A stretch of DNA of 58,715 bases from Chloroflexota bacterium. GTDB lineage: Bacteria > Chloroflexota > Dehalococcoidia > UBA2979. Positions 1-8,041 of this stretch are shown piece by piece (the first letter of the stretch is position 1; each line of letters opens with the position of its first letter). Position numbers and translations under genes: made by a program. The DNA lies in NCBI GenBank assembly GCA_009839925.1, contig VXOS01000142.1, forward strand, positions 69,110 through 127,824, read 5' to 3'. The notes beneath the pieces are model-generated. The model was not told the DNA's origin. It did not search any database and saw only the letters and a program-made list of their open reading frames with translations.

Positions 1-136
1 GCGCACCGACGTGGCAACTGCGGGGAGGACCGCACGAAATCGCTGCTTCGGCGTCCGAACATGCGGGGAGTTCGCATGTCTGGGCGTGGGCGCGTGCAGG
101 GTACGGCACGTTTCCGTGGATCACCTTTGTGAGGGG

Positions 137-1711
137 ATGTCGCCAATGGCCATCTCCGGGTCGGCCCCACGTAGCGCCGACGGGGCGGCCGCAGTGAGGG
201 ATGAGGCTACCGCAGGGGGACCGATGCTCAATAGCCAGACCGCTGACGCAGGAGACGACTGGCGCCTGTTCCGGGCCGGCGCGTTTCTTGCGTCGGACCC
301 GCACGGGTCCGACGCACCTGACGAATGGGGTGACCTGGAGGAGCGTGAGGACGCCTTGGGCTTGGAGTTCGGACGCCCGTTTTTGCTCCGGCCGGATCTC
401 TCCGCTGACATCAATGTCCTGCTGTACTTCGCAAGTCCTCGCTTCCGGCTCCTGGCGCCAACCTCTCAACTCGGCTACGCCAACAACATCCGAGTGTTCC
501 TCAGCTACCTCACGTCGCAGGGCGTGGAGTGGCGCGAGGCTACCGAAGACCACCTCCTGAACTACCACTACCGGCGCCGACAGAAGCCGATCAAAGGCCA
601 GGCTGTGATCTCGGGTACAGCCTTCGCGCGAGAACTCGCGGCCCTGACTCACTTCTTCGTGTGGCAGCAGGAGAGTGGTGCCATCCAGGAGAGCCCGGTC
701 AAGCTGCGGTCGTACCGCCGGTACGATGGAACGACGGGGATGACTGCGCGGCTCCGCCCGAAGGATGTGCGCGCGTTGGACGTGAAGTGGCTGCTTCCCG
801 ACACGTACCGTGTTTGGAGGCAAGTGGGTCTGGGGGGCTACACCAGGGACGGCCTCCCGGACCGGTCCTGGCGTGGCCGGAACGATGGCCGGAACCTCGC
901 GTTTGCGGACGCGTTGTGGACGAGCGGCTTGCGACGCAAGGAAGCCGGCACGCTGCTGTTGTGCGAACTACCGGCCCCGCGAAGTGACGGCACCCTGTCT
1001 CGTGGTCGCGTCGCGGACGCCGTCGCCAAGGGTCGCGCCCGGAGCTTTTGGATCTCGCAGGCCGGTCTGCAGGCTATCGACGGGTACAGGGAGTCCACTC
1101 GGGCGCTGAGCGTTCTGAGAGCGCAGGCGGCTGGCCGCTACGACCAGATACGCGGACGGCGAATCGTCCGGCGGGTGACTGCGAGCGGGCAGCTCCGCTT
1201 GGAGGATGAAGACGGGAACATCACGACAGAGTCGCTGGATAGCCTTACCGCCGGCGACAGGCAACGGTTGTTCATCGAAGGCGCCCGCGGGTTTGAGCCC
1301 GCAATGCTCTGGCTCTCGGAGTCGGGAATGCCGCTGCGCTTCAACACCTGGAAGATGGTGTTCCACGACGCGAACCGGCGGTGCGAAGCGCTGGGCGTGG
1401 GCATACGATGCTACCCACACATGCTCCGGCACTCCTTCGCGCTGCGTTGATGGGCGATCAGCGCTGAGCAGCTCGGTGCCAGGGAGAACGACAGGCTCGA
1501 TGACTACGTGGGTCGCGCCGACCCCTGGGTGAGGGTTCAGACTCTCCTCGGGCATCGCAGCCCCCAGACGACCCGAGACACTTACCTCGAACCCGCACGC
1601 GAGGTCGACATCGAGCTCATGCTCGCGGGCGACGACGGCATCGGTTCGCGCGATGAAATCTTGGGACTTGTCGCAGATAGGTCACCAAGAGTGCAGGGGT
1701 GGCCGTCCTGA
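137..1711 (+). pseudogene. Tyrosine recombinase/integrase interrupted by in-frame TGA at 1448-1450
   Basis: TSGLRRKE (R), AKG (K) and HMLRHSF (HxxR) precede the stop. The same frame continues WAISAEQ...LLGHRSPQTTRDTY (H and catalytic Y) to TGA 1709-1711, which overlaps the next ATG. Confidence 0.85.
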
Positions 1712-3567
1712 TGTCACCCGGCCGGAATCGCCGCATCTCCTTCCCCGAGCCCGACGATGAGCGTCCCCCAATCCTCAGCGCCGATGGTCTGGTCCTCGGT
1801 CCGCTGATCGAAGAAGACGGGACGGACATGGGCACGTACGACTTCAGGGTCTTGCTGCCGGACTGCCCGCGAGGCCTTGTGGTGCCGCTCGTGGCCGGGC
1901 TCGCCAGGGGTGCGGGTCCCGGGGGGCGATGGCGGAGGCGGGCTTCGGTTCGTCAGGTTGCCGGCGTCTTGCGCACGTTCGTGCGGGAAATCGCAAGGCT
2001 GTACCCCCAGTTGGATTCGATTGAGCGGCTCAGCCCCGAGATGTATCGGACTTGGTTCTGGGAAGTGCGGTCTCGTGTGACGTGGCCGGGCCTCATCGTC
2101 ATCGTGCGTGGGCTCCTCGAGGAGACCGACGGCGTGCCACGAGAGACGCTGCAGGCAGTACGAACGCTGCGGGCGAGCAAGCCGAACCATGGAGCGTCGA
2201 AGCGCTATACCCGGTCCGAGTTCCGGCGCATCCGGTCCGCCCTTCGTAGGAGCGCCTTCGCTGGCCACGCCCGCGTCGAATCGAACGCCGCACACCTGGC
2301 CCTCTATCTGGCCGGGGAGGAACCGGATGACGCGCCGCGATGGCAGCTCATGGACGAGGTCTTCAGTAAGGGCGAGTTCCTAGCTCACCTCGCGCGCACC
2401 GGCAGGCTACCCGACGCGTATTTGGGTGCCGAGCATGTGGAGCAAATACCTGTGCGTGAGTCGTTGGGATGCGTCGCCGGTGGGGTCGATGCGCGAGCGG
2501 CACTCTTCCCGACCGCGTCCGAGGCGTTCGCCCTGGCTGCTCTCATCGCCTGCGAACGCGGGTGGAATCACGCTTCCATCATGGCTCTCGACCTCGACGC
2601 TGTGGAACGTGTCGTCGGCGTGGCGGGTCGAGGCGCAACTTACCGCATCGAACTGGACAAGCCTCGGCGGGGTTCCGGTCGCCGGTTTGGAGCGCAGATC
2701 CTCACTAGGAGGCAGGCTCGGCTCTGGGAGCTGGCCGTCGCCTTCACGCAGCCCGCGCGGGATACGCTCGCCGAGCTCGGCCACCCAACGACTCAGCTGC
2801 TGGTTGCAATCAGCCAAGCCGCCGGCACGACCGGGCCGGGAGGCGTGTTCATCACCGACTGGCTGACCCAGTCTCCGGGCTCATTGGCTTGGCACCGGAA
2901 GGTCGAGCTGGCGGCCGACGACGGTACCCCCTTGAGAGTCACGTTCCTGCGTCTTCGCAAGACGTGGTTCGGGATGCATCGGCGGCCCAACCAGAACACC
3001 GGTGAAGTCCTTGAGCAGTCGTACCTCCGGAACGACCCGGAGGTCGTCGAGCTAGCACTGCAGGAAGCCGAGCACGGGCTGACCGACTGGGTGGAGGGCG
3101 CGAAGGAAGGCATGGTACAGCGGATCGGCACCGACGATCTCGCGGCTGCCCGCGATGGCGTGAGGGACGTACCCGGCATCAGCCAGGAACAGGCAGGGGA
3201 CATCTTGAGTGGGCGTCTCGAGACACCGGGTTGTGTTGCATGTCTCGACATCCATCACAGCCCCCACCCGGCAGACGATGGCGGCGACTGTACGGTCTCA
3301 CCGCTGATCTGCCTGGCGTGCCCTAACGCGGTGTCGACTCCCGCGCATCTCCCAAAACAGCTGGCCCTGGCTGAGGTTCTCAAGAACGCCGCCGCCGCCC
3401 TCTTCCGCACGCCGAGGGAAGGGCAGTATGACCTGCACCTCCTTCGACTCCGAAGTCTCATTGCGCGAGCAACGCCGGCCGAAATCGAGGAGGCGCGTTC
3501 CGCCATAACGGCCGAGGACATCGACAACGCCGAAAGGCTGCTGAGAAGGGAGTTCGACGTATGGTAG
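1711..3567 (+). CDS. Degenerate tyrosine-recombinase-like protein with C-terminal Cys-rich domain
   Basis: ERGWN, DKPRR, LRLRKT and EQSY occupy recombinase motif positions; C-terminal CVAC...C...CLACPNA. TGATG coupling to the upstream gene (alternative GTG start at 1699). Confidence 0.7.
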   Translation: MSPGRNRRISFPEPDDERPPILSADGLVLGPLIEEDGTDMGTYDFRVLLPDCPRGLVVPLVAGLARGAGPGGRWRRRASVRQVAGVLRTFVREIARLYPQLDSIERLSPEMYRTWFWEVRSRVTWPGLIVIVRGLLEETDGVPRETLQAVRTLRASKPNHGASKRYTRSEFRRIRSALRRSAFAGHARVESNAAHLALYLAGEEPDDAPRWQLMDEVFSKGEFLAHLARTGRLPDAYLGAEHVEQIPVRESLGCVAGGVDARAALFPTASEAFALAALIACERGWNHASIMALDLDAVERVVGVAGRGATYRIELDKPRRGSGRRFGAQILTRRQARLWELAVAFTQPARDTLAELGHPTTQLLVAISQAAGTTGPGGVFITDWLTQSPGSLAWHRKVELAADDGTPLRVTFLRLRKTWFGMHRRPNQNTGEVLEQSYLRNDPEVVELALQEAEHGLTDWVEGAKEGMVQRIGTDDLAAARDGVRDVPGISQEQAGDILSGRLETPGCVACLDIHHSPHPADDGGDCTVSPLICLACPNAVSTPAHLPKQLALAEVLKNAAAALFRTPREGQYDLHLLRLRSLIARATPAEIEEARSAITAEDIDNAERLLRREFDVW

Positions 3568-5666
3568 CGCGCGAAGCTCACATGCACGGCGACGGGGAGT
3601 ACGACGCGCCCGTCGAGTTCGGCCCGGATCTGCCTGTACTGGACGGCGCCCGTGCCGCGACCTGGCCCTACGACGAACCGCCACCCCGGATGGGTGACAG
3701 TGAGTGGCCGCTTCCCGGGACCGACCCCGACGGGGCAGGCATGCAGCACACCATAGTGTGGAAGGGCGTGCCCGATGATTTCCTCGAGGGCCTGAAGCTG
3801 GTCGTCCGGTCGCTCCTGAATAACCGAACCCCGCTCGGCGTCTTGGAGCGCAGTAGCTGGGCGCGCTCCCGCCTCAGCGACGGTTCGGTAGCGGCCGCCG
3901 TCGCCGACCTGAAGTACTTCGCTCGCTGGGCCCACGAGCGCGGCATCAGCGACCTTCGAGACGTCGACGGACCTACGCTCTGGGCATACGTCACTCACCT
4001 GAAGAGCCTCGGTGTGTCGCGGAGGATGGGCTACAACCGCGGCTGGGCGTTGACGCGGCTCTGGCTCCACAGCAGGTACTTGCCAACTCGCCACCGGCTC
4101 CGCCAGCCACGGTGGGAGATTCCCGGGCAGCCGAGTCTCACGGAGTTCTTCGGGCCCCCGGAGAAGTACGTGGAGAACACAACCGAACCAATCGACCCGG
4201 ACACGTGGGATGTCATGTGGTCCTGGGCCGAGTGGTTCATCAGGGAGCCCGGGCCCGACATCGTGAGAGCCAAGGAAGCGCGTGACGCAATGAGAGCGGG
4301 TCTGCGCAAGAAGGTCGAGCCCGGCGATGAAGCGCGATTCAAGGAGTGGCTGGCCGCGCGCGAGCGGATTGGTGAGCCCTTGCCGGGGTGGCGCTACCAC
4401 GGCCGTTTGGGCGTCGGCCGCGAGTACATTGCCCTTCAGGCCAACGTTGGTCTCGGCGCGGTTCGCCGCTTTGAAGCCGTACCGGTGGAACGCAGCGCCC
4501 CCCTCGACTGCCGTATCGAAGGGCGTCTTCAGGGTCGGCCATGGACCAACTTTATCGACTACTACGAGATCGACGCCCTTGTGGAGCATCTCGCGACGGC
4601 AGGCACCATCATCATCGCCGCCTTGACCGGAATGCGGGGCCTGGAGCTGCGCTCGCTGGAGCGAGGCTGCTGCCGACGCGTGGATCGCGGTTCCGGAAGG
4701 CCGCCGGGCTACGAGGTGAGAGGCAAGACATTCAAGACAACGGACTCGGACGGAAACGCCGTCCGCGGTGGTCAAATGCGCGATGCCCCGTGGCCGGGGA
4801 TCCCCCCGGTACCGCAGGCCGTTCAGATCCTAGAGTGCATGCACGACGATGCTCTCCTGCTCCCGAGCTACATCTTCGGGAGCAAGCCTGGGCGGGCGGT
4901 GTCGGGACAGCAGTTGAACACATGCATCCAGAGGTTCATGGCGTGGTGCAGTACCACCGCGCGGCAGGCGGGCCTGAACGGGGCGGCCATCCCTGAAGAC
5001 CCGGCTGGGCGCATCACCGTGCGGCGGTTCCGGCGCACGATGGCTCGAGTGGTCCAACTCCGACCGCTCGGGCGAATCGCCAACGGTGTCATGCTGGGCC
5101 ACGCGTCGCTCCGCACCACGGACGGGTACGGCTCGCTCGTGTTCAGTGAGCAGCGTGACACGTATCGGCAAGAGGAGTCACTAGCCATCGCTGCGCGGCT
5201 GCTATCGCTTGCCGAGCGTCTCGACGCAGGGGAGGGCGTGAGCGGGCCCGCTGCGTCGGACCTGCTCTCAGTGGTGACCGAGTTCGCCGGCAAGCACCTT
5301 ACGCCCCGCCAAGACGAGGCGGTGCGCGAGAATCCTGACAGCGCTCTCTATGAGAACGACCATCTGTACCTCATGTGTGTATACCGGGCAGATCGGGCGC
5401 TCTGCCACCCAGATCGGGCCGGCTCACCGAATAGCAACCAAAGCCCGGACCTCACCAACTGCCAGGTGAGTTGCCCGAACGTGGCCTACACCGACCGCAA
5501 CATTGTCGATATGGAGGAAGCGGCGCGTCAGCTACGCGCGGTCGCGGCGTCTCCGGAGGCCCCACTGTTTCTCGTGGTCCGCTCGGCGCAGCGCGCCGAG
5601 CGCATGGAAGAGATCATCGCCAAGCACCGCGAGACGCGCATCGTCAACCCGAGGGATGTGACTTGA
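3561..5666 (+). CDS. Phage-integrase-family tyrosine recombinase with Cys-rich C-terminal extension
   Basis: LTGMRGLE, TFK, RRFRRT and LGHASLRTTDGY motifs; C-terminal MC...C...CQVSCPN; overlaps the upstream stop. Confidence 0.8.
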   Translation: MVAREAHMHGDGEYDAPVEFGPDLPVLDGARAATWPYDEPPPRMGDSEWPLPGTDPDGAGMQHTIVWKGVPDDFLEGLKLVVRSLLNNRTPLGVLERSSWARSRLSDGSVAAAVADLKYFARWAHERGISDLRDVDGPTLWAYVTHLKSLGVSRRMGYNRGWALTRLWLHSRYLPTRHRLRQPRWEIPGQPSLTEFFGPPEKYVENTTEPIDPDTWDVMWSWAEWFIREPGPDIVRAKEARDAMRAGLRKKVEPGDEARFKEWLAARERIGEPLPGWRYHGRLGVGREYIALQANVGLGAVRRFEAVPVERSAPLDCRIEGRLQGRPWTNFIDYYEIDALVEHLATAGTIIIAALTGMRGLELRSLERGCCRRVDRGSGRPPGYEVRGKTFKTTDSDGNAVRGGQMRDAPWPGIPPVPQAVQILECMHDDALLLPSYIFGSKPGRAVSGQQLNTCIQRFMAWCSTTARQAGLNGAAIPEDPAGRITVRRFRRTMARVVQLRPLGRIANGVMLGHASLRTTDGYGSLVFSEQRDTYRQEESLAIAARLLSLAERLDAGEGVSGPAASDLLSVVTEFAGKHLTPRQDEAVRENPDSALYENDHLYLMCVYRADRALCHPDRAGSPNSNQSPDLTNCQVSCPNVAYTDRNIVDMEEAARQLRAVAASPEAPLFLVVRSAQRAERMEEIIAKHRETRIVNPRDVT

Positions 5667-5748
5667 TGCCCCTGACTATAGGACCGCAACGGTCACGGGC
5701 CGGGCGCTGCCGAGCGCCGAATGTGTTGGCGACAGGGATGGGTGCTCG

Positions 5749-6231
5749 ATGAGCAAGGCGAATCAGGTCGAAGCCGCGATCCGCGCCGCTATGGACAGAC
5801 TCCTGAAGGGCGAGCCGATTCGTTCGGATGGGAGCCTGACAGCAGTAGCTCTCGCTGCAGAGTCCGGCGTGTCACGATGGAAGCTCTACGACGAGTACCG
5901 GTATCTGCTCGATGAGTTCGGCACCAGGGCCGCGCTCCAGGACAACACGCCTCGGGCCCTCCGAGACTTGCAGGAGAAGCACGCGCAGCTCAAGGAGCGG
6001 CACATCAGGACCCGCAACAAGCTGGCTCAATCCGCCGCAGATGTGAAGCGCCTGAGCTGTGTCGTCAACGTGCTGGCGTTGGAGAACGCGAAGTGCAAGG
6101 AGAACCACGGCGACCGCCGCGACTCCGACAATCGCCCCGATCGAGGCGGCGGCCCCGATTGGGACGACGGCCCCGATTCCAATGTGACCCCAATCAGCCG
6201 CGCGAAGGGTTTCAGCCACGACACGAACTGA
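5749..6231 (+). CDS. Small HTH + coiled-coil accessory protein (TnpC/GmtX-like)
   Basis: IRAAMDRLL...LTAVALAAESGVSRWKLY HTH-like segment followed by a heptad-rich helix; last gene of the recombinase cluster. Confidence 0.7.
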   Translation: MSKANQVEAAIRAAMDRLLKGEPIRSDGSLTAVALAAESGVSRWKLYDEYRYLLDEFGTRAALQDNTPRALRDLQEKHAQLKERHIRTRNKLAQSAADVKRLSCVVNVLALENAKCKENHGDRRDSDNRPDRGGGPDWDDGPDSNVTPISRAKGFSHDTN

Positions 6232-6319
6232 ACAGGTTCCTGCGCGGGCGCCGGCAGGGTGTCGACGTCGTCCGGCAGGGCCCCGTATCGAGATGCGGCC
6301 TTAGGCGACAGCGCCCGAA

Positions 6320-6343
6320 CAGGAGGGCAACATCCCCCTCCTG
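6320..6343. repeat. 8-bp inverted repeat near element right end
   Basis: CAGGAGGG-caacatcc-CCCTCCTG. Confidence 0.6.
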
Positions 6344-6392
6344 AAGCCCCTCAGTACGCCGACAAAACCCGCTTCGACACGCCGACCCTGAA

Positions 6393-6668
6393 TACAACGC
6401 CGGCTTTTGCGACCCCGGCTTCGGCTACGGCGCGGACCTGCGCGGGACGCAGGCGGTCCTCGAGGTGCGTGCGCACGACGTGCCGTTCATGCTCGAGGAC
6501 GGCCAGCCGATCGCCCGGCTCGCCTTCGAGCGAATGGCGGAGCCGCCGGGCGTGCTCTACGGCAGCAGCGAGCTGGGCTCGCACTTCCAGCGCCAGGGCG
6601 TGAAGCTCAGCCGCCAGTTCAAGGCCCCCGAAGCGAGCATCCGCTTCCAGATGACCAGCGGCCGCTGA
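6393..6668 (+). pseudogene. dcd: 3' remnant of long-form dCTP deaminase
   Basis: Frame reads YNAGFCDPGFGY...AVLEVRAHDVPFMLEDGQ...LYG...SHFQRQGVKLSRQF, matching the C-terminus of DCD-family proteins (HYAGFFDPGFG...LEVR...Q.Q.LKLS..F). Upstream in-frame stop at 6342-6344, and no start codon before the conserved block. Confidence 0.8.
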
Positions 6669-6775: not shown

Positions 6776-8041
6776 ATCCCGAGGAAGCGCACTCGCAACG
6801 GTCGCAACGGCGGAGCCGACGGCACGGGCAGGAACGGACGCGGGCACGCGACCGCGCCGGTGCAGGAGCGCGCCTTCCTCGTCGGCCTCGACTACCAGCG
6901 CAAGCCGCTCATGCCGCCTCGCGAGTCGCTGCGCGAGCTGGCGCGGCTCGCCCGCACGGCGGGCGCGACCGTCGTCGGGCAGGCGCTGCAACGGCGGCCT
7001 CGCCCCGACCCCGCGACCTGGATCGGCGCCGGCAAGCTCGAGGAGATCCAGGCGGCACGGGAGACCACGGGCTACTCGCTCGTGATCTTCGACGAGCAGC
7101 TCTCGCCCGCGCAGCAACTCCGGCTGGAGTCGGCGCTCGGCGTCAAGGTGCTGGACCGCAGCGCGTTGATCCTCGACATCTTCGCCAGCCGCGCCCGCAC
7201 CCGCGAGGCGGCGCTGCAGGTGGAGCTGGCGCAGCACGAGTACCTGCTGCCGCGCCTGCGCGGGCAGTGGCGGCACCTCGAACGCACCGAGGGCGCGATC
7301 GGGGCGCGCGGACCGGGCGAGACGCAGCTGGAGACCGACCGCCGCCTGGTCGGCGCCCGGATCAGCCACCTCAAGCGCTCGATCAAGGGCGTGCGCAAGC
7401 AGCGGGCACTGCACCGCCGCCGCCGCGAGCGCGACGGCATCCCGGTGGTCGCGCTCGTCGGCTACACCAACGCCGGCAAGTCCTCGCTGCTGCAGGCGCT
7501 CGCGGGTAGCGAGGCGCTCACCGCCGACGCGCCTTTCGCGACGCTCGATCCGCTGACCCGCCGCGTCGGCGCGCCCGGCGGCCACGCCTTCCTGCTGACC
7601 GACACCGTCGGCTTCATCCAGAAGCTGCCGACGCAGCTGATCTCGGCCTTCCGCGCCACCCTCGAGGAGCTTGAGTCCGCCGACATGCTGCTGCACGTCG
7701 TCGACGCCAGCTCACCCGCCGCGGCGGCGCAGGGCGAGACGGTGCTGGAGACGCTCGCCGACCTCGACCTGACGGGACGGCCGGTGTTCACAGTGCTCAA
7801 CAAGGCCGACGAGCTGGAGCTGCCGGACGGGTCGCTGCCGGCCGCGGAGTCCGACCTCGCACGTCTCGACGGCGAGAATCCGGCGCACGAGTCCGCGCTG
7901 GCGCACCCGGACCTCCCGCACATCGGGACGCTCGTCGTCTCCGCGCTGCACGGCTGGGGCATCGATGCGCTGCGCGAGCGGCTCGCGCTCGATCTCTTCG
8001 GCGAGCGTCCGCCCGCGCCGGCGCTCGCGGCGTCGCGCTGA
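6776..8041 (+). CDS. hflX: Ribosome-splitting GTPase HflX (probable ATC start; alternative GTG 6860)
   Basis: ERAFLVG, DRSALILDIFA, RGPGETQLETDRR, GYTNAGKS, FATLDP, DTVGFI, NKAD. Confidence 0.95.
   Translation: MPRKRTRNGRNGGADGTGRNGRGHATAPVQERAFLVGLDYQRKPLMPPRESLRELARLARTAGATVVGQALQRRPRPDPATWIGAGKLEEIQAARETTGYSLVIFDEQLSPAQQLRLESALGVKVLDRSALILDIFASRARTREAALQVELAQHEYLLPRLRGQWRHLERTEGAIGARGPGETQLETDRRLVGARISHLKRSIKGVRKQRALHRRRRERDGIPVVALVGYTNAGKSSLLQALAGSEALTADAPFATLDPLTRRVGAPGGHAFLLTDTVGFIQKLPTQLISAFRATLEELESADMLLHVVDASSPAAAAQGETVLETLADLDLTGRPVFTVLNKADELELPDGSLPAAESDLARLDGENPAHESALAHPDLPHIGTLVVSALHGWGIDALRERLALDLFGERPPAPALAASR

What the first reader, a model, noticed from the sequence alone, without database searches (positions are those of the whole stretch)
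137..6231. Recombinase quartet: cargo-free four-gene tyrosine-recombinase mobile element
Seen: three overlapping recombinase-fold genes and a small HTH/coiled-coil gene. Gene 1 has the canonical R-K-HxxR-H-Y set. Gene 2 has lost the first Arg (GWN) and the His residues but keeps a Tyr. Gene 3 keeps R, K, R, H and Y. Genes 2 and 3 both end in Cys-rich, probably metal-binding tails. Only ~160 bp separate gene 4 from host DNA. Known: Tn554 (TnpA/B/C), RIT and Gamma-Mobile-Trio elements use multi-recombinase sets, but those are three-gene modules. Inference: this is a distinct hetero-oligomeric recombinase class with a catalytically altered scaffold subunit. The proteins recall actinobacterial integrase clusters, hinting at cross-phylum transfer.
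Basis: partly seen in the sequence, partly recalled or inferred. Interest (0 to 1): 0.75.

Follow-up and report, generated by a model that had tools for sequence, protein, structure and literature searches.

The report
SE-like four-gene recombinase defence island
The four genes are the recombination module of an already described kind of mobile island (three tyrosine-recombinase-fold proteins plus a small helper, as in SE and GInt elements), here in an undescribed lineage, sitting at the edge of a 41-kb anti-phage defence island that split the host dcd gene, and with its first recombinase gene broken by a stop codon.

Summary
The four + strand genes are real, and their order is kept in every relative inspected (3 of 3 genome loci, 2 of 2 plasmid loci). 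Predicted models of genes 2 and 3 match tyrosine recombinases (Z 12.4 and 13.9). Gene 2 has Gly in place of the first Arg and lacks both His, but keeps Lys, the second Arg and Tyr. Both large proteins carry four invariant Cys.

- Gene 1 has an in-frame TGA (1448-1450) between its HxxR box and its His/Tyr. Contigs from two samples also show it.
- The element is not cargo-free. Seven of seven same-genus loci show an uninterrupted dcd. The insertion is 41,338 bp, bounded by a duplicated CGCCGG and 13-bp imperfect inverted repeats. It holds about 35 kb of defence genes and no other recombinase.
- Four-gene modules of this composition are published. GInts have ginABCD. SEs have intA-tfp-intB-srap, which is exactly this order and these sizes.

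No significant sequence similarity to two real SEs was found. The module also lies at the "wrong" end of the island. I read it as a third, unnamed lineage of the SE/GInt kind. That lineage is common on actinobacterial plasmids. This copy, in a Chloroflexota host, is probably immobile.

The parts
1..136 (+). Last copy of a ~173-bp tandem unit that fills the cargo-to-g1 spacer. It follows a 10-N scaffold gap that lies just left of window base 1. Each unit holds the g1 start region and an inverted repeat, GAACATGCG-N7-CGCATGTC (window 56-80).
   Evidence: Raised contig depth over 82-127 in run X1.
137..1711 (+). g1, an IntA-like tyrosine recombinase (524 codons) interrupted by an in-frame TGA at 1448-1450. 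The 437-aa product would lack His III and the Tyr nucleophile.
   Evidence: Identical sequence in contigs of runs X1 and X2.
1699..3567 (+). g2, a Tfp-like recombinase-fold protein (622 aa from GTG 1699, 618 aa from ATG 1711). Arg I is replaced by Gly288 and both His are lost. K321, R420 and Y442 are kept, with a 4-Cys cluster at 515-541.
3561..5666 (+). g3, an IntB-like large tyrosine recombinase (701 aa) with R359, K392, R491, H514, Y523 and a 4-Cys cluster at 606-638.
5749..6231 (+). g4, a Srap/GinD/TnpC-like small accessory protein (160 aa). An 18-bp tandem repeat (6134-6178) adds about 18 residues that homologues lack.
6232..6397 (.). Right arm of the island. The last 13 bases (6385-6397, ACCCTGAATACAA) are the right terminal inverted repeat.
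6398..6403 (.). CGCCGG, the 6-bp core. It is duplicated at the left junction (C20:34163-34168) and present once in the empty site of relatives.
6404..6668 (+). 3' remnant of the host dcd gene (long-form dCTP deaminase). Its 5' 332 codons lie 41.3 kb to the left, at C20:33180-34178.

Best explanation
The quartet is the recombination module of an integrative island of the SE/GInt kind. It consists of an ordinary tyrosine recombinase (g1, IntA-like), a recombinase-fold protein without a full active site (g2, Tfp-like), a large tyrosine recombinase (g3, IntB-like) and a small accessory protein (g4, Srap/GinD/TnpC-like).

Shown:
- The whole 41,338-bp low-G+C segment C20:34169-75506 (window ..6397) is one insertion in the host dcd gene.
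- It is flanked by a duplicated 6-bp core, CGCCGG.
- Its ends are 13-bp imperfect inverted repeats that would flank a 6-bp spacer if joined.
- Its other 35 kb are defence genes: a type IIG restriction-modification enzyme, an Avs-like STAND NTPase, an HKD+Snf2 helicase, a GTPase-associated system, a TPR-PIN protein and toxin-antitoxin genes.

Inferred, by analogy with experiments on GInts and SEs:
- g1 and g3 cut and rejoin the strands at the 6-bp core.
- g2 is an architectural or DNA-binding subunit.
- g4 assists synapsis or sets direction.
- The island leaves as a circle and enters dcd site-specifically.
- This copy is probably immobile, because g1 carries a premature stop and the genome holds no second copy to complement it.

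The lineage is distinct from gammaproteobacterial SEs at the sequence level. It is widespread on actinobacterial plasmids and also occurs on alphaproteobacterial ones.
For: Composition, order and sizes:
- The window proteins are 524/622/701/160 aa. Real SEs have 545/614/671/161 aa on pAQU1 and 429/576/679/154 aa on pBT2436.
- The published definitions of SE and GInt match this composition.

Folds and residues: the recombinase folds of g2 and g3 and the active-site pattern.

Conserved four-gene unit:
- 3 of 3 genome-contig loci.
- 2 of 2 annotated plasmid loci, in Rhodococcus and Mycobacterium, with position-by-position BLASTP of 1e-117/8e-83/2e-117/1e-11 and 4e-85/7e-34/2e-93/5e-20.

Family size:
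- 175 plasmid records match g3.
- 1681 cluster representatives match the g2 profile, 1148 of them at E<=1e-10.

Island limits:
- 7 of 7 same-genus loci are colinear up to C20:34168/34170 and again from 75503/75508.
- The junction sequences were read directly.
- The termini match as inverted repeats in 10 of 13 positions, exactly abutting the core. Chance is about 3.5e-4 per placement.

Sole recombination module: no other recombinase or quartet remnant lies in the 35 kb, and there is no second copy in the genome.

Composition: the island is 65.1% G+C against 71.3% for the rest of the contig.

Cargo content.

Shared 4-Cys tails: the Tfp proteins of both SEs have C..C-x5-C-x2-C, and g2 has C-x15-C-x6-C-x2-C. 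Both IntB proteins and g3 also have four C-terminal Cys.

Same weak annotation state: IntA has a marginal Phage_integrase hit, IntB has none, and Srap has a sub-threshold DUF6262 hit. A g4 look-alike cluster carries DUF6262 in 26% of its members.

The stop in g1 and the right junction are both seen in a second sample's contigs.
Against: - There is no significant sequence similarity to the two SEs fetched. BLASTP found nothing for the window proteins. hhalign of the g3 profile against IntB gave E 0.035 (probability 1.5%), and of the g2 profile against Tfp gave E 0.74. GInt sequences were not compared.
- The module lies next to the right end and is transcribed towards it, with the cargo upstream of g1. 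In SEs, in GInts and in this lineage's own relatives (L005, L006, L007, L021, L022), the module lies at the end it is transcribed away from, and the cargo follows gene 4.
- A 10-N scaffold gap inside a tandem repeat lies between cargo and g1. The content of the gap is unknown.
- g2 keeps an invariant Tyr, Lys and Arg II. Published Tfp and GinC are described as lacking the catalytic motif.
- No circular junction or empty site appeared in the laid contigs. Contigs cannot show rare forms.
- Function was not tested.
Confidence: 0.7

Rival explanations
1. Cargo-free quartet. On this view, a ~6.4-kb element made only of g1-g4 integrated beside, or into the edge of, an older and unrelated 35-kb defence island in dcd.
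For: - In relatives L005 and L006, the terminal motif lies within about 35 bp upstream of g1.
- Only 166 bp follow g4.
- The tandem repeats upstream of g1 could be a scar.
Against: - No terminus-like 13-mer (<=3 mismatches) and no second core lie in the cargo-to-g1 spacer, C20:68734-69245.
- The inverted-repeat partner of the right terminus sits 41 kb away, exactly at the other dcd junction.
- The 35 kb has no recombinase of its own.
- All 41.3 kb are absent together from 7 of 7 relatives.
Confidence: 0.12
2. Rearranged canonical island. The element first had the usual order (terminus, g1-g4, cargo, terminus). The module block was later inverted, or the circle re-entered through a secondary site. 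That left the module at the far end reading outward, and the g1 5' region was then duplicated in tandem.
For: - The g1-proximal terminus of L006 (TTCTATTCAAGGT) matches the reverse complement of the window's right terminus in 11 of 13 positions. It matches the left terminus in only 8 of 13.
- All five relatives inspected have the cargo after gene 4.
- The tandem repeat and the broken g1 both point to decay.
Against: - No breakpoint sequences were identified.
- No close relative (>65% identity) could be fetched to compare arrangements.
- An 11-versus-8-of-13 difference is weak evidence.
- This rival refines the best explanation rather than replacing it.
Confidence: 0.13
3. Assembly artefact. 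On this view, the scaffold wrongly joins two loci, and the quartet and the cargo belong to different places or strains.
For: - There is a 10-N gap with a 55-nt overlap inside a repeat.
- The genome is a 214-contig assembly with 3.4% contamination.
Against: - The two sides carry the two halves of one dcd gene that is uninterrupted in 7 of 7 relatives. They also have matching terminal repeats and core and the same G+C.
- Independent contigs of run X1 run 75 nt leftwards past window base 1, and contigs of run X2 bridge the right junction.
Confidence: 0.05

Closest known systems
SEs, strand-biased circularizing integrative elements (intA-tfp-intB-srap; Idola et al. 2023, PMC10214605; passages and part of the supplements read)
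   Same: - Four core genes in the same order, with nearly the same sizes.
[quoted passage not shown]
- A recombinase-fold protein in second position without the full catalytic set.
- A small last gene.
- Overlapping genes.
- Split attB, with imperfect 13-bp terminal inverted repeats around a 6-bp spacer.
- 4-Cys clusters in the tails of protein 2 and protein 3.
- No mobilisation genes.
   Different: - No significant sequence similarity.
- The hosts are Chloroflexota, Actinomycetota and Alphaproteobacteria rather than Gammaproteobacteria.
- g2 keeps an invariant Lys, Arg II and Tyr.
- In this copy the module is at the far end, reading outward.
- Copy-out behaviour was not tested.
[quoted passage not shown] 2017, PMC5385486; Results and Discussion read)
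   Same: [quoted passage not shown]
- One of the three lacks the first Arg.
- Site-specific insertion into a gene.
- Short flanking repeats with a 6-nt stagger.
- Large cargo. Defence cargo is reported in E. coli (PMC10121019, passages read).
   Different: - In GInts the degenerate protein is third (GinC), not second.
- GInt cargo follows ginD.
- GInt hosts are mainly Proteobacteria.
- GInt sequences were not compared here.
Tn554 (tnpA, tnpB, tnpC). Known to me only through the accounts in PMC10214605 and PMC5385486.
   Same: - One ordinary and one ~630-aa tyrosine recombinase plus a small third protein.
- Site-specific insertion.
- A 6-bp carried-over core.
   Different: - Tn554 has no counterpart of g2.
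- Its hosts are Bacillota.
- Its sequences were not compared here.
RIT elements (recombinase in trio). Described from the table in PMC10214605.
   Same: Three adjacent tyrosine-recombinase genes.
   Different: - RIT proteins are 315-410 aa and all keep the catalytic Tyr.
- RITs have 34-bp terminal repeats.
- RITs have no small fourth gene.

Membership tests
SE | Four core genes in the order recombinase, recombinase-fold protein, large recombinase, small protein | tested here: met
   The sizes parallel those of pAQU1 and pBT2436.
SE | IntA and IntB carry the catalytic R-H-R-Y residues | tested here: inconclusive
   g1 has all the residues but is cut by a TGA before His III and Tyr. g3 has R359, R491, H514 and Y523, but the His II position (488) is variable.
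SE | Protein 2 (Tfp) has the recombinase fold but lacks the catalytic motif | tested here: inconclusive
   The fold is met (Z 12.4). Arg I and both His are lost, but Arg II (102 of 107) and Tyr (107 of 107) are kept.
SE | Split attB, and joined ends that form imperfect inverted repeats around a 6-bp spacer | tested here: met
SE | Core operon at the motif-C end, transcribed inward, with cargo after srap | tested here: not met
   The cargo lies upstream of g1, and g4 ends 166 bp from the right end. The feature is met in relatives L005-L007, L021 and L022.
SE | Sequence similarity to SE core proteins | tested here: not met
   BLASTP and hhalign against the pAQU1 and pBT2436 proteins found nothing significant.
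SE | Strand-biased copy-out circle, with no empty site left behind | not testable with these tools
   Only contigs were available for the runs.
GInt | ginABCD: three integrase-like genes plus a small helix-loop-helix gene | tested here: met
   The composition is met.
GInt | The degenerate integrase is the third gene (GinC), and cargo starts after ginD | tested here: not met
   The degenerate protein is second. There is no cargo after g4.
GInt | Sequence similarity to GinA-D | not tested
   No GInt sequence could be fetched. Supplement part 1 of PMC10214605 gave only headers.
Tn554 | Three genes only (tnpA, tnpB, tnpC) | tested here: not met
   An extra recombinase-fold gene, g2, is present and conserved.
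RIT | Three 315-410-aa recombinases that all keep the catalytic Tyr and full motif, and no fourth gene | tested here: not met
   The sizes are 524/622/701 aa, g2 lacks Arg I and both His, and g4 is present.

The most novel reading that the evidence does not exclude
The second protein may not be a dead scaffold. Across 107 members of its family, the Lys, the second Arg and the Tyr at the nucleophile position never or almost never vary, while Arg I and both His are gone. It could therefore be half of a composite active site. On this reading it would donate its Tyr in trans (as Flp does) to a partner recombinase, or cleave one specific strand. That would give a built-in strand bias to a third, Gram-positive/Chloroflexota lineage of SE/GInt-type elements.
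Probability: 0.15. Interest if true: 0.7.

Novelty: new variant of a known kind. Interest (0 to 1): 0.42.

Why it matters
SEs are published as confined to Gammaproteobacteria and GInts mainly to Proteobacteria.

This module has the SE gene order and the SE terminal architecture. Its family has more than a thousand cluster representatives, and it sits on many Streptomyces, Rhodococcus and Mycobacterium plasmids. There its genes are annotated only as 'integrase' or 'hypothetical protein'.

Recognising these as four-gene islands would have three uses:
- It would let genome annotators delimit a class of cargo-carrying islands in Actinomycetota and Chloroflexota. Here the cargo is defence genes.
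- It would give a wider comparative set for working out why these elements need a recombinase-fold protein without a full active site.
- It would provide invariant residues (Lys, Arg, Tyr and four Cys) to mutate.

The particular copy in the window is a decaying one and is of limited interest in itself.

Tried and rejected
- **First genome-contig scan with g3 alone.** 129 pattern matches, 0 confirmed. It was repeated with the alignment, which gave 3 loci.
- **Profile-profile comparison of g3 against g2.** Not significant (probability 0.5%). Their kinship rests on fold alone.
- **Foldseek against the PDB.** No hit with E<=0.001 for either model, although all top rows were tyrosine recombinases. 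VIA-align was used as a second look.
- **DUF6262 search of the own genome.** No match. PF28121 is not in the library.
- **Complex prediction, g3 with g4.** 'No answer', score 0.00 in two runs. This is evidence neither for nor against binding.
- **tRNA scan of C20:57110-77109.** None found. The target is dcd, not a tRNA gene.
- **blastn-short of the island's left end, the g1 upstream repeats and the right arm.** Compared with each other and with the flanks of L005-L007; nothing beyond the tandem repeat.
- **Right end of the L005 island.** Not located by motif scan.
- **Laid contigs.** No joint or loose end at the island's right junction. Contigs drop rare forms, so this says nothing about excision.
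- **Literature.** Five searches in all. These covered Tn554/actinobacteria, 'recombinase in trio', the SE name, 'GInt'/'three integrases', and six phrasings of 'three integrases/recombinases'. They found no description of this actinobacterial/Chloroflexota lineage. Only the held library was searched, and PDF and pptx supplements could not be read.
- **GInt sequences.** An attempt to fetch them through the supplement failed.
Full report
**What is in the sequence**

The region holds four + strand ORFs:
- g1, 137..1711
- g2, 1699 or 1711..3567
- g3, 3561..5666
- g4, 5749..6231

The g1 stop overlaps an ATG of g2. g2 and g3 overlap by 7 nt.

g1 is not intact. A TGA at 1448-1450 lies in frame between the HxxR box and the His/Tyr box. 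In three relatives the frame is open there, with H, W or V at that position. The stop is not an error of this assembly alone. An independent contig of the probable source run (X1, 2126 nt) and a 705-nt contig of a second sample (X2) match window 1-2051 and 1001-1705 without any difference.

**Are they recombinases?**

Family libraries see little:
- g1 has a SAM-like N-domain hit (6e-6), weak XerC/D hits and a sub-threshold Phage_integrase hit.
- g2 has no hit.
- g3 has one faint XerC hit.
- g4 has no credible hit (only a marginal Gemin6_C match, E 0.099).

Structure prediction settles the fold:
- g2: pLDDT 83.5. It aligns over residues 53-456 to two-domain tyrosine recombinases. The best match is the Tn1549 integrase at Z 12.4, rmsd 4.3, 271 residues. 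XerH, lambda Int, IntI and Cre all score Z about 10-12.
- g3: pLDDT 71.9. It aligns over residues 71-553. The best match is Cre at Z 13.9, rmsd 4.5, 262 residues.
- Foldseek E-values alone were only 0.01-0.05.

Active-site residues:
- g1: R266, K298, H428xxR431, H473, Y483.
- g3: R359, K392, R491, H514 and Y523 are invariant in 15 of 15. The His II position is variable.
- g2: the Arg I position is Gly288 (96 of 107) followed by Asn290 (106 of 107). His II and His III are lost. K321 (107 of 107), R420 (102 of 107) and Y442 (107 of 107) are kept.

The g2 figures come from g2 plus 106 cluster representatives. Those were the ones of 555-640 aa among the 142 newly listed representatives. The shorter, longer and previously listed ones were left out.

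Both large proteins have four invariant Cys near the C-terminus.

**Is it a conserved unit?**

Yes.
- All three loci found in the species-level genome collection carry the four genes in the same order (29 pattern matches, 3 confirmed). The three are a Dehalococcoidia MAG, a Chloroflexi MAG and an Actinomycetota MAG.
- tblastn of g3 finds 175 plasmid records, 67 of them covering at least 80% of the query. The commonest genera are Streptomyces 52, Sphingobium 21, Rhodococcus 13, Agrobacterium 11 and Mycobacterium 9.
- The two plasmid loci I opened (Rhodococcus and Mycobacterium) show the same four genes. They are annotated 'site-specific integrase / hypothetical / hypothetical or integrase / hypothetical'. 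Each is homologous to its window counterpart.
- The g2 profile finds 1681 cluster representatives, 1148 of them at E<=1e-10.
- The word-indexed searches had suggested rarity, with 15, 27 and 13 hits. That reflected their prefilter.
- Within the host's own class the element is rare: 2 of 401 genomes, both in one genus.
- The second genome's contig contains locus L006, whose record title names a Chloroflexi MAG. The host is therefore a Chloroflexota. The runs that hold the DNA are labelled sponge metagenome.

**It is not cargo-free**

The window begins directly after a 10-N scaffold gap. Low G+C does not stop there. C20:34-75.5 kb is about 65% G+C against 71% for the rest of the contig.

Seven of seven same-genus loci with an intact long-form dcd gene are colinear with C20 up to 34168/34170 and again from 75503/75508.

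The junctions read as follows:

| Site | Sequence |
|---|---|
| Left junction | host ...CACTA CGCCGG / TTGTCGTTAGGGT... |
| Right junction | ...ACCCTGAATACAA / CGCCGG CTTTTGCG... host |
| Empty site | ...CACTA CGCCGG CTTCTGCG... |

The insertion is therefore 41,338 bp (C20:34169-75506; window end 6397). It has a duplicated 6-bp core. Its terminal 13-mers are inverted repeats in 10 of 13 positions, with a chance of about 3.5e-4 for that placement. Joined, the ends would form imperfect repeats around a 6-bp spacer. This is the criterion used to recognise SEs.

The two halves of dcd lie on either side of the scaffold gap. Both sides therefore belong to one insertion, whatever the gap hides.

The 35 kb left of the quartet encodes:
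- a type IIG restriction-modification enzyme
- an Avs1b-like STAND NTPase with a nuclease domain
- an HKD+Snf2 helicase
- GAP1-N1, DO-GTPase2 and GASH proteins
- a TPR-PIN protein
- HicB-like and other small toxin-antitoxin proteins
- a short dcd-like gene

There is no other recombinase and no remnant of a second quartet. The genome holds no second copy.

**Comparison with what is known**

[quoted passage not shown] GinC lacks the first Arg, and cargo follows ginD.
- SEs are defined by intA-tfp-intB-srap. Tfp is a recombinase-fold protein without the catalytic motif, and Srap is a small coiled-coil protein. SEs have 13-19-bp imperfect terminal repeats and a 6-bp spacer. They are reported only from Gammaproteobacteria.
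- GInts carrying defence systems are reported in E. coli.

The window's order and sizes are those of SEs. I fetched two real SEs:

| Source | Protein 1 | Protein 2 | Protein 3 | Protein 4 |
|---|---|---|---|---|
| Window | 524 aa | 622 aa | 701 aa | 160 aa |
| pAQU1 | 545 aa | 614 aa | 671 aa | 161 aa |
| pBT2436 | 429 aa | 576 aa | 679 aa | 154 aa |

Sequence similarity between the window proteins and these SEs is not significant. The SE authors report the same lack of similarity between SEs and GInts.

Two softer links exist:
- Both SE Tfp proteins have a C..C-x5-C-x2-C cluster, and both IntB proteins have four C-terminal Cys, as g2 and g3 do.
- Srap of pAQU1 gives a sub-threshold DUF6262 hit. 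A g4 look-alike cluster carries that family in 26% of its members.

I therefore file the module as working like an SE/GInt module. I do not file it as a member of either named group.

**What does not fit**

In SEs, in GInts and in all five relatives inspected, the module sits at the end it is transcribed away from, and the cargo follows gene 4. In L005 and L006 the terminal motif lies within about 35 bp of g1, at the break in a dam-like host gene.

In the window the cargo is upstream of g1, and g4 ends 166 bp from the right terminus. No terminus-like motif lies between the cargo and g1.

The terminus of L006 resembles the reverse complement of the window's right terminus (11 of 13) more than the left terminus (8 of 13). 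This would fit an inversion of the module block, but it is weak evidence.

The cargo-to-g1 spacer consists of about three tandem copies of a 173-bp unit that includes the g1 start.

Together with the stop in g1, this looks like a rearranged, decaying copy. The closest homologues (65-89% identity) could not be fetched to test that.

**Mechanism**

Shown:
- site-specific insertion in dcd
- a 6-bp duplicated core
- terminal inverted repeats
- a four-gene module as the only recombination genes

Inferred from GInt and SE genetics:
- g1 and g3 catalyse strand exchange at the core.
- g2 and g4 are required non-catalytic or accessory subunits.
- The island moves through a circular form.
- With g1 truncated before its Tyr, this copy should not move.

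**Verdict**

This is a real, conserved four-gene recombination module of a published kind. It belongs to an unnamed lineage that extends the kind to Chloroflexota, Actinomycetota and Alphaproteobacteria.

The claims of a new class and of a cargo-free element do not hold.

Noticed in passing
L004 11650-11990 and window 1-136 (C20:68759-69245): About three tandem copies of a 173-bp unit fill the space between the cargo and g1. The first two copies are 98% alike. The third runs into g1 and shares its first ~25 codons. A 10-N scaffold gap with a 55-nt overlap lies inside the array. Each unit holds the inverted repeat GAACATGCG-N7-CGCATGTC.
   Followed up: partly
window 6134-6178: An 18-bp tandem repeat (2.5 copies) inside g4 adds about 18 residues (NHGDRRDSDNRPDRGGGP...) that 12 of 12 aligned homologues lack.
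   Followed up: partly
C20:39873-40439 (left of the window); L005 12396-13502; L006 12492-13520: The island that truncates the host's long-form dcd carries its own short dcd-like gene (188 aa). In L005 and L006 a related element interrupts a dam-like host gene and carries a D12 adenine methyltransferase directly after gene 4. This may be a pattern in which the cargo includes a homologue of the target gene.
   Followed up: partly
proteins P0056, P0057, P0059, P0063: Four representatives of the g2 family are 1054-1121 aa long, with the g2-like part in the C-terminal half. They may be fusions of gene 1 and gene 2.
   Followed up: no
C20:55602-60692 and C20:35847-39698 (left of the window): The cargo includes a GTPase-associated set (GAP1-N1, DO-GTPase2, GASH) and a 1283-aa TPR protein with the PIN domain of the TPR-GreAB-C-PIN system. 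None of these matched a PADLOC model.
   Followed up: no
window 7150-7690: Laid contigs show much higher summed depth here, with many short joints and loose ends in all four runs. This is probably a conserved host gene shared with other organisms of the samples.
   Followed up: no
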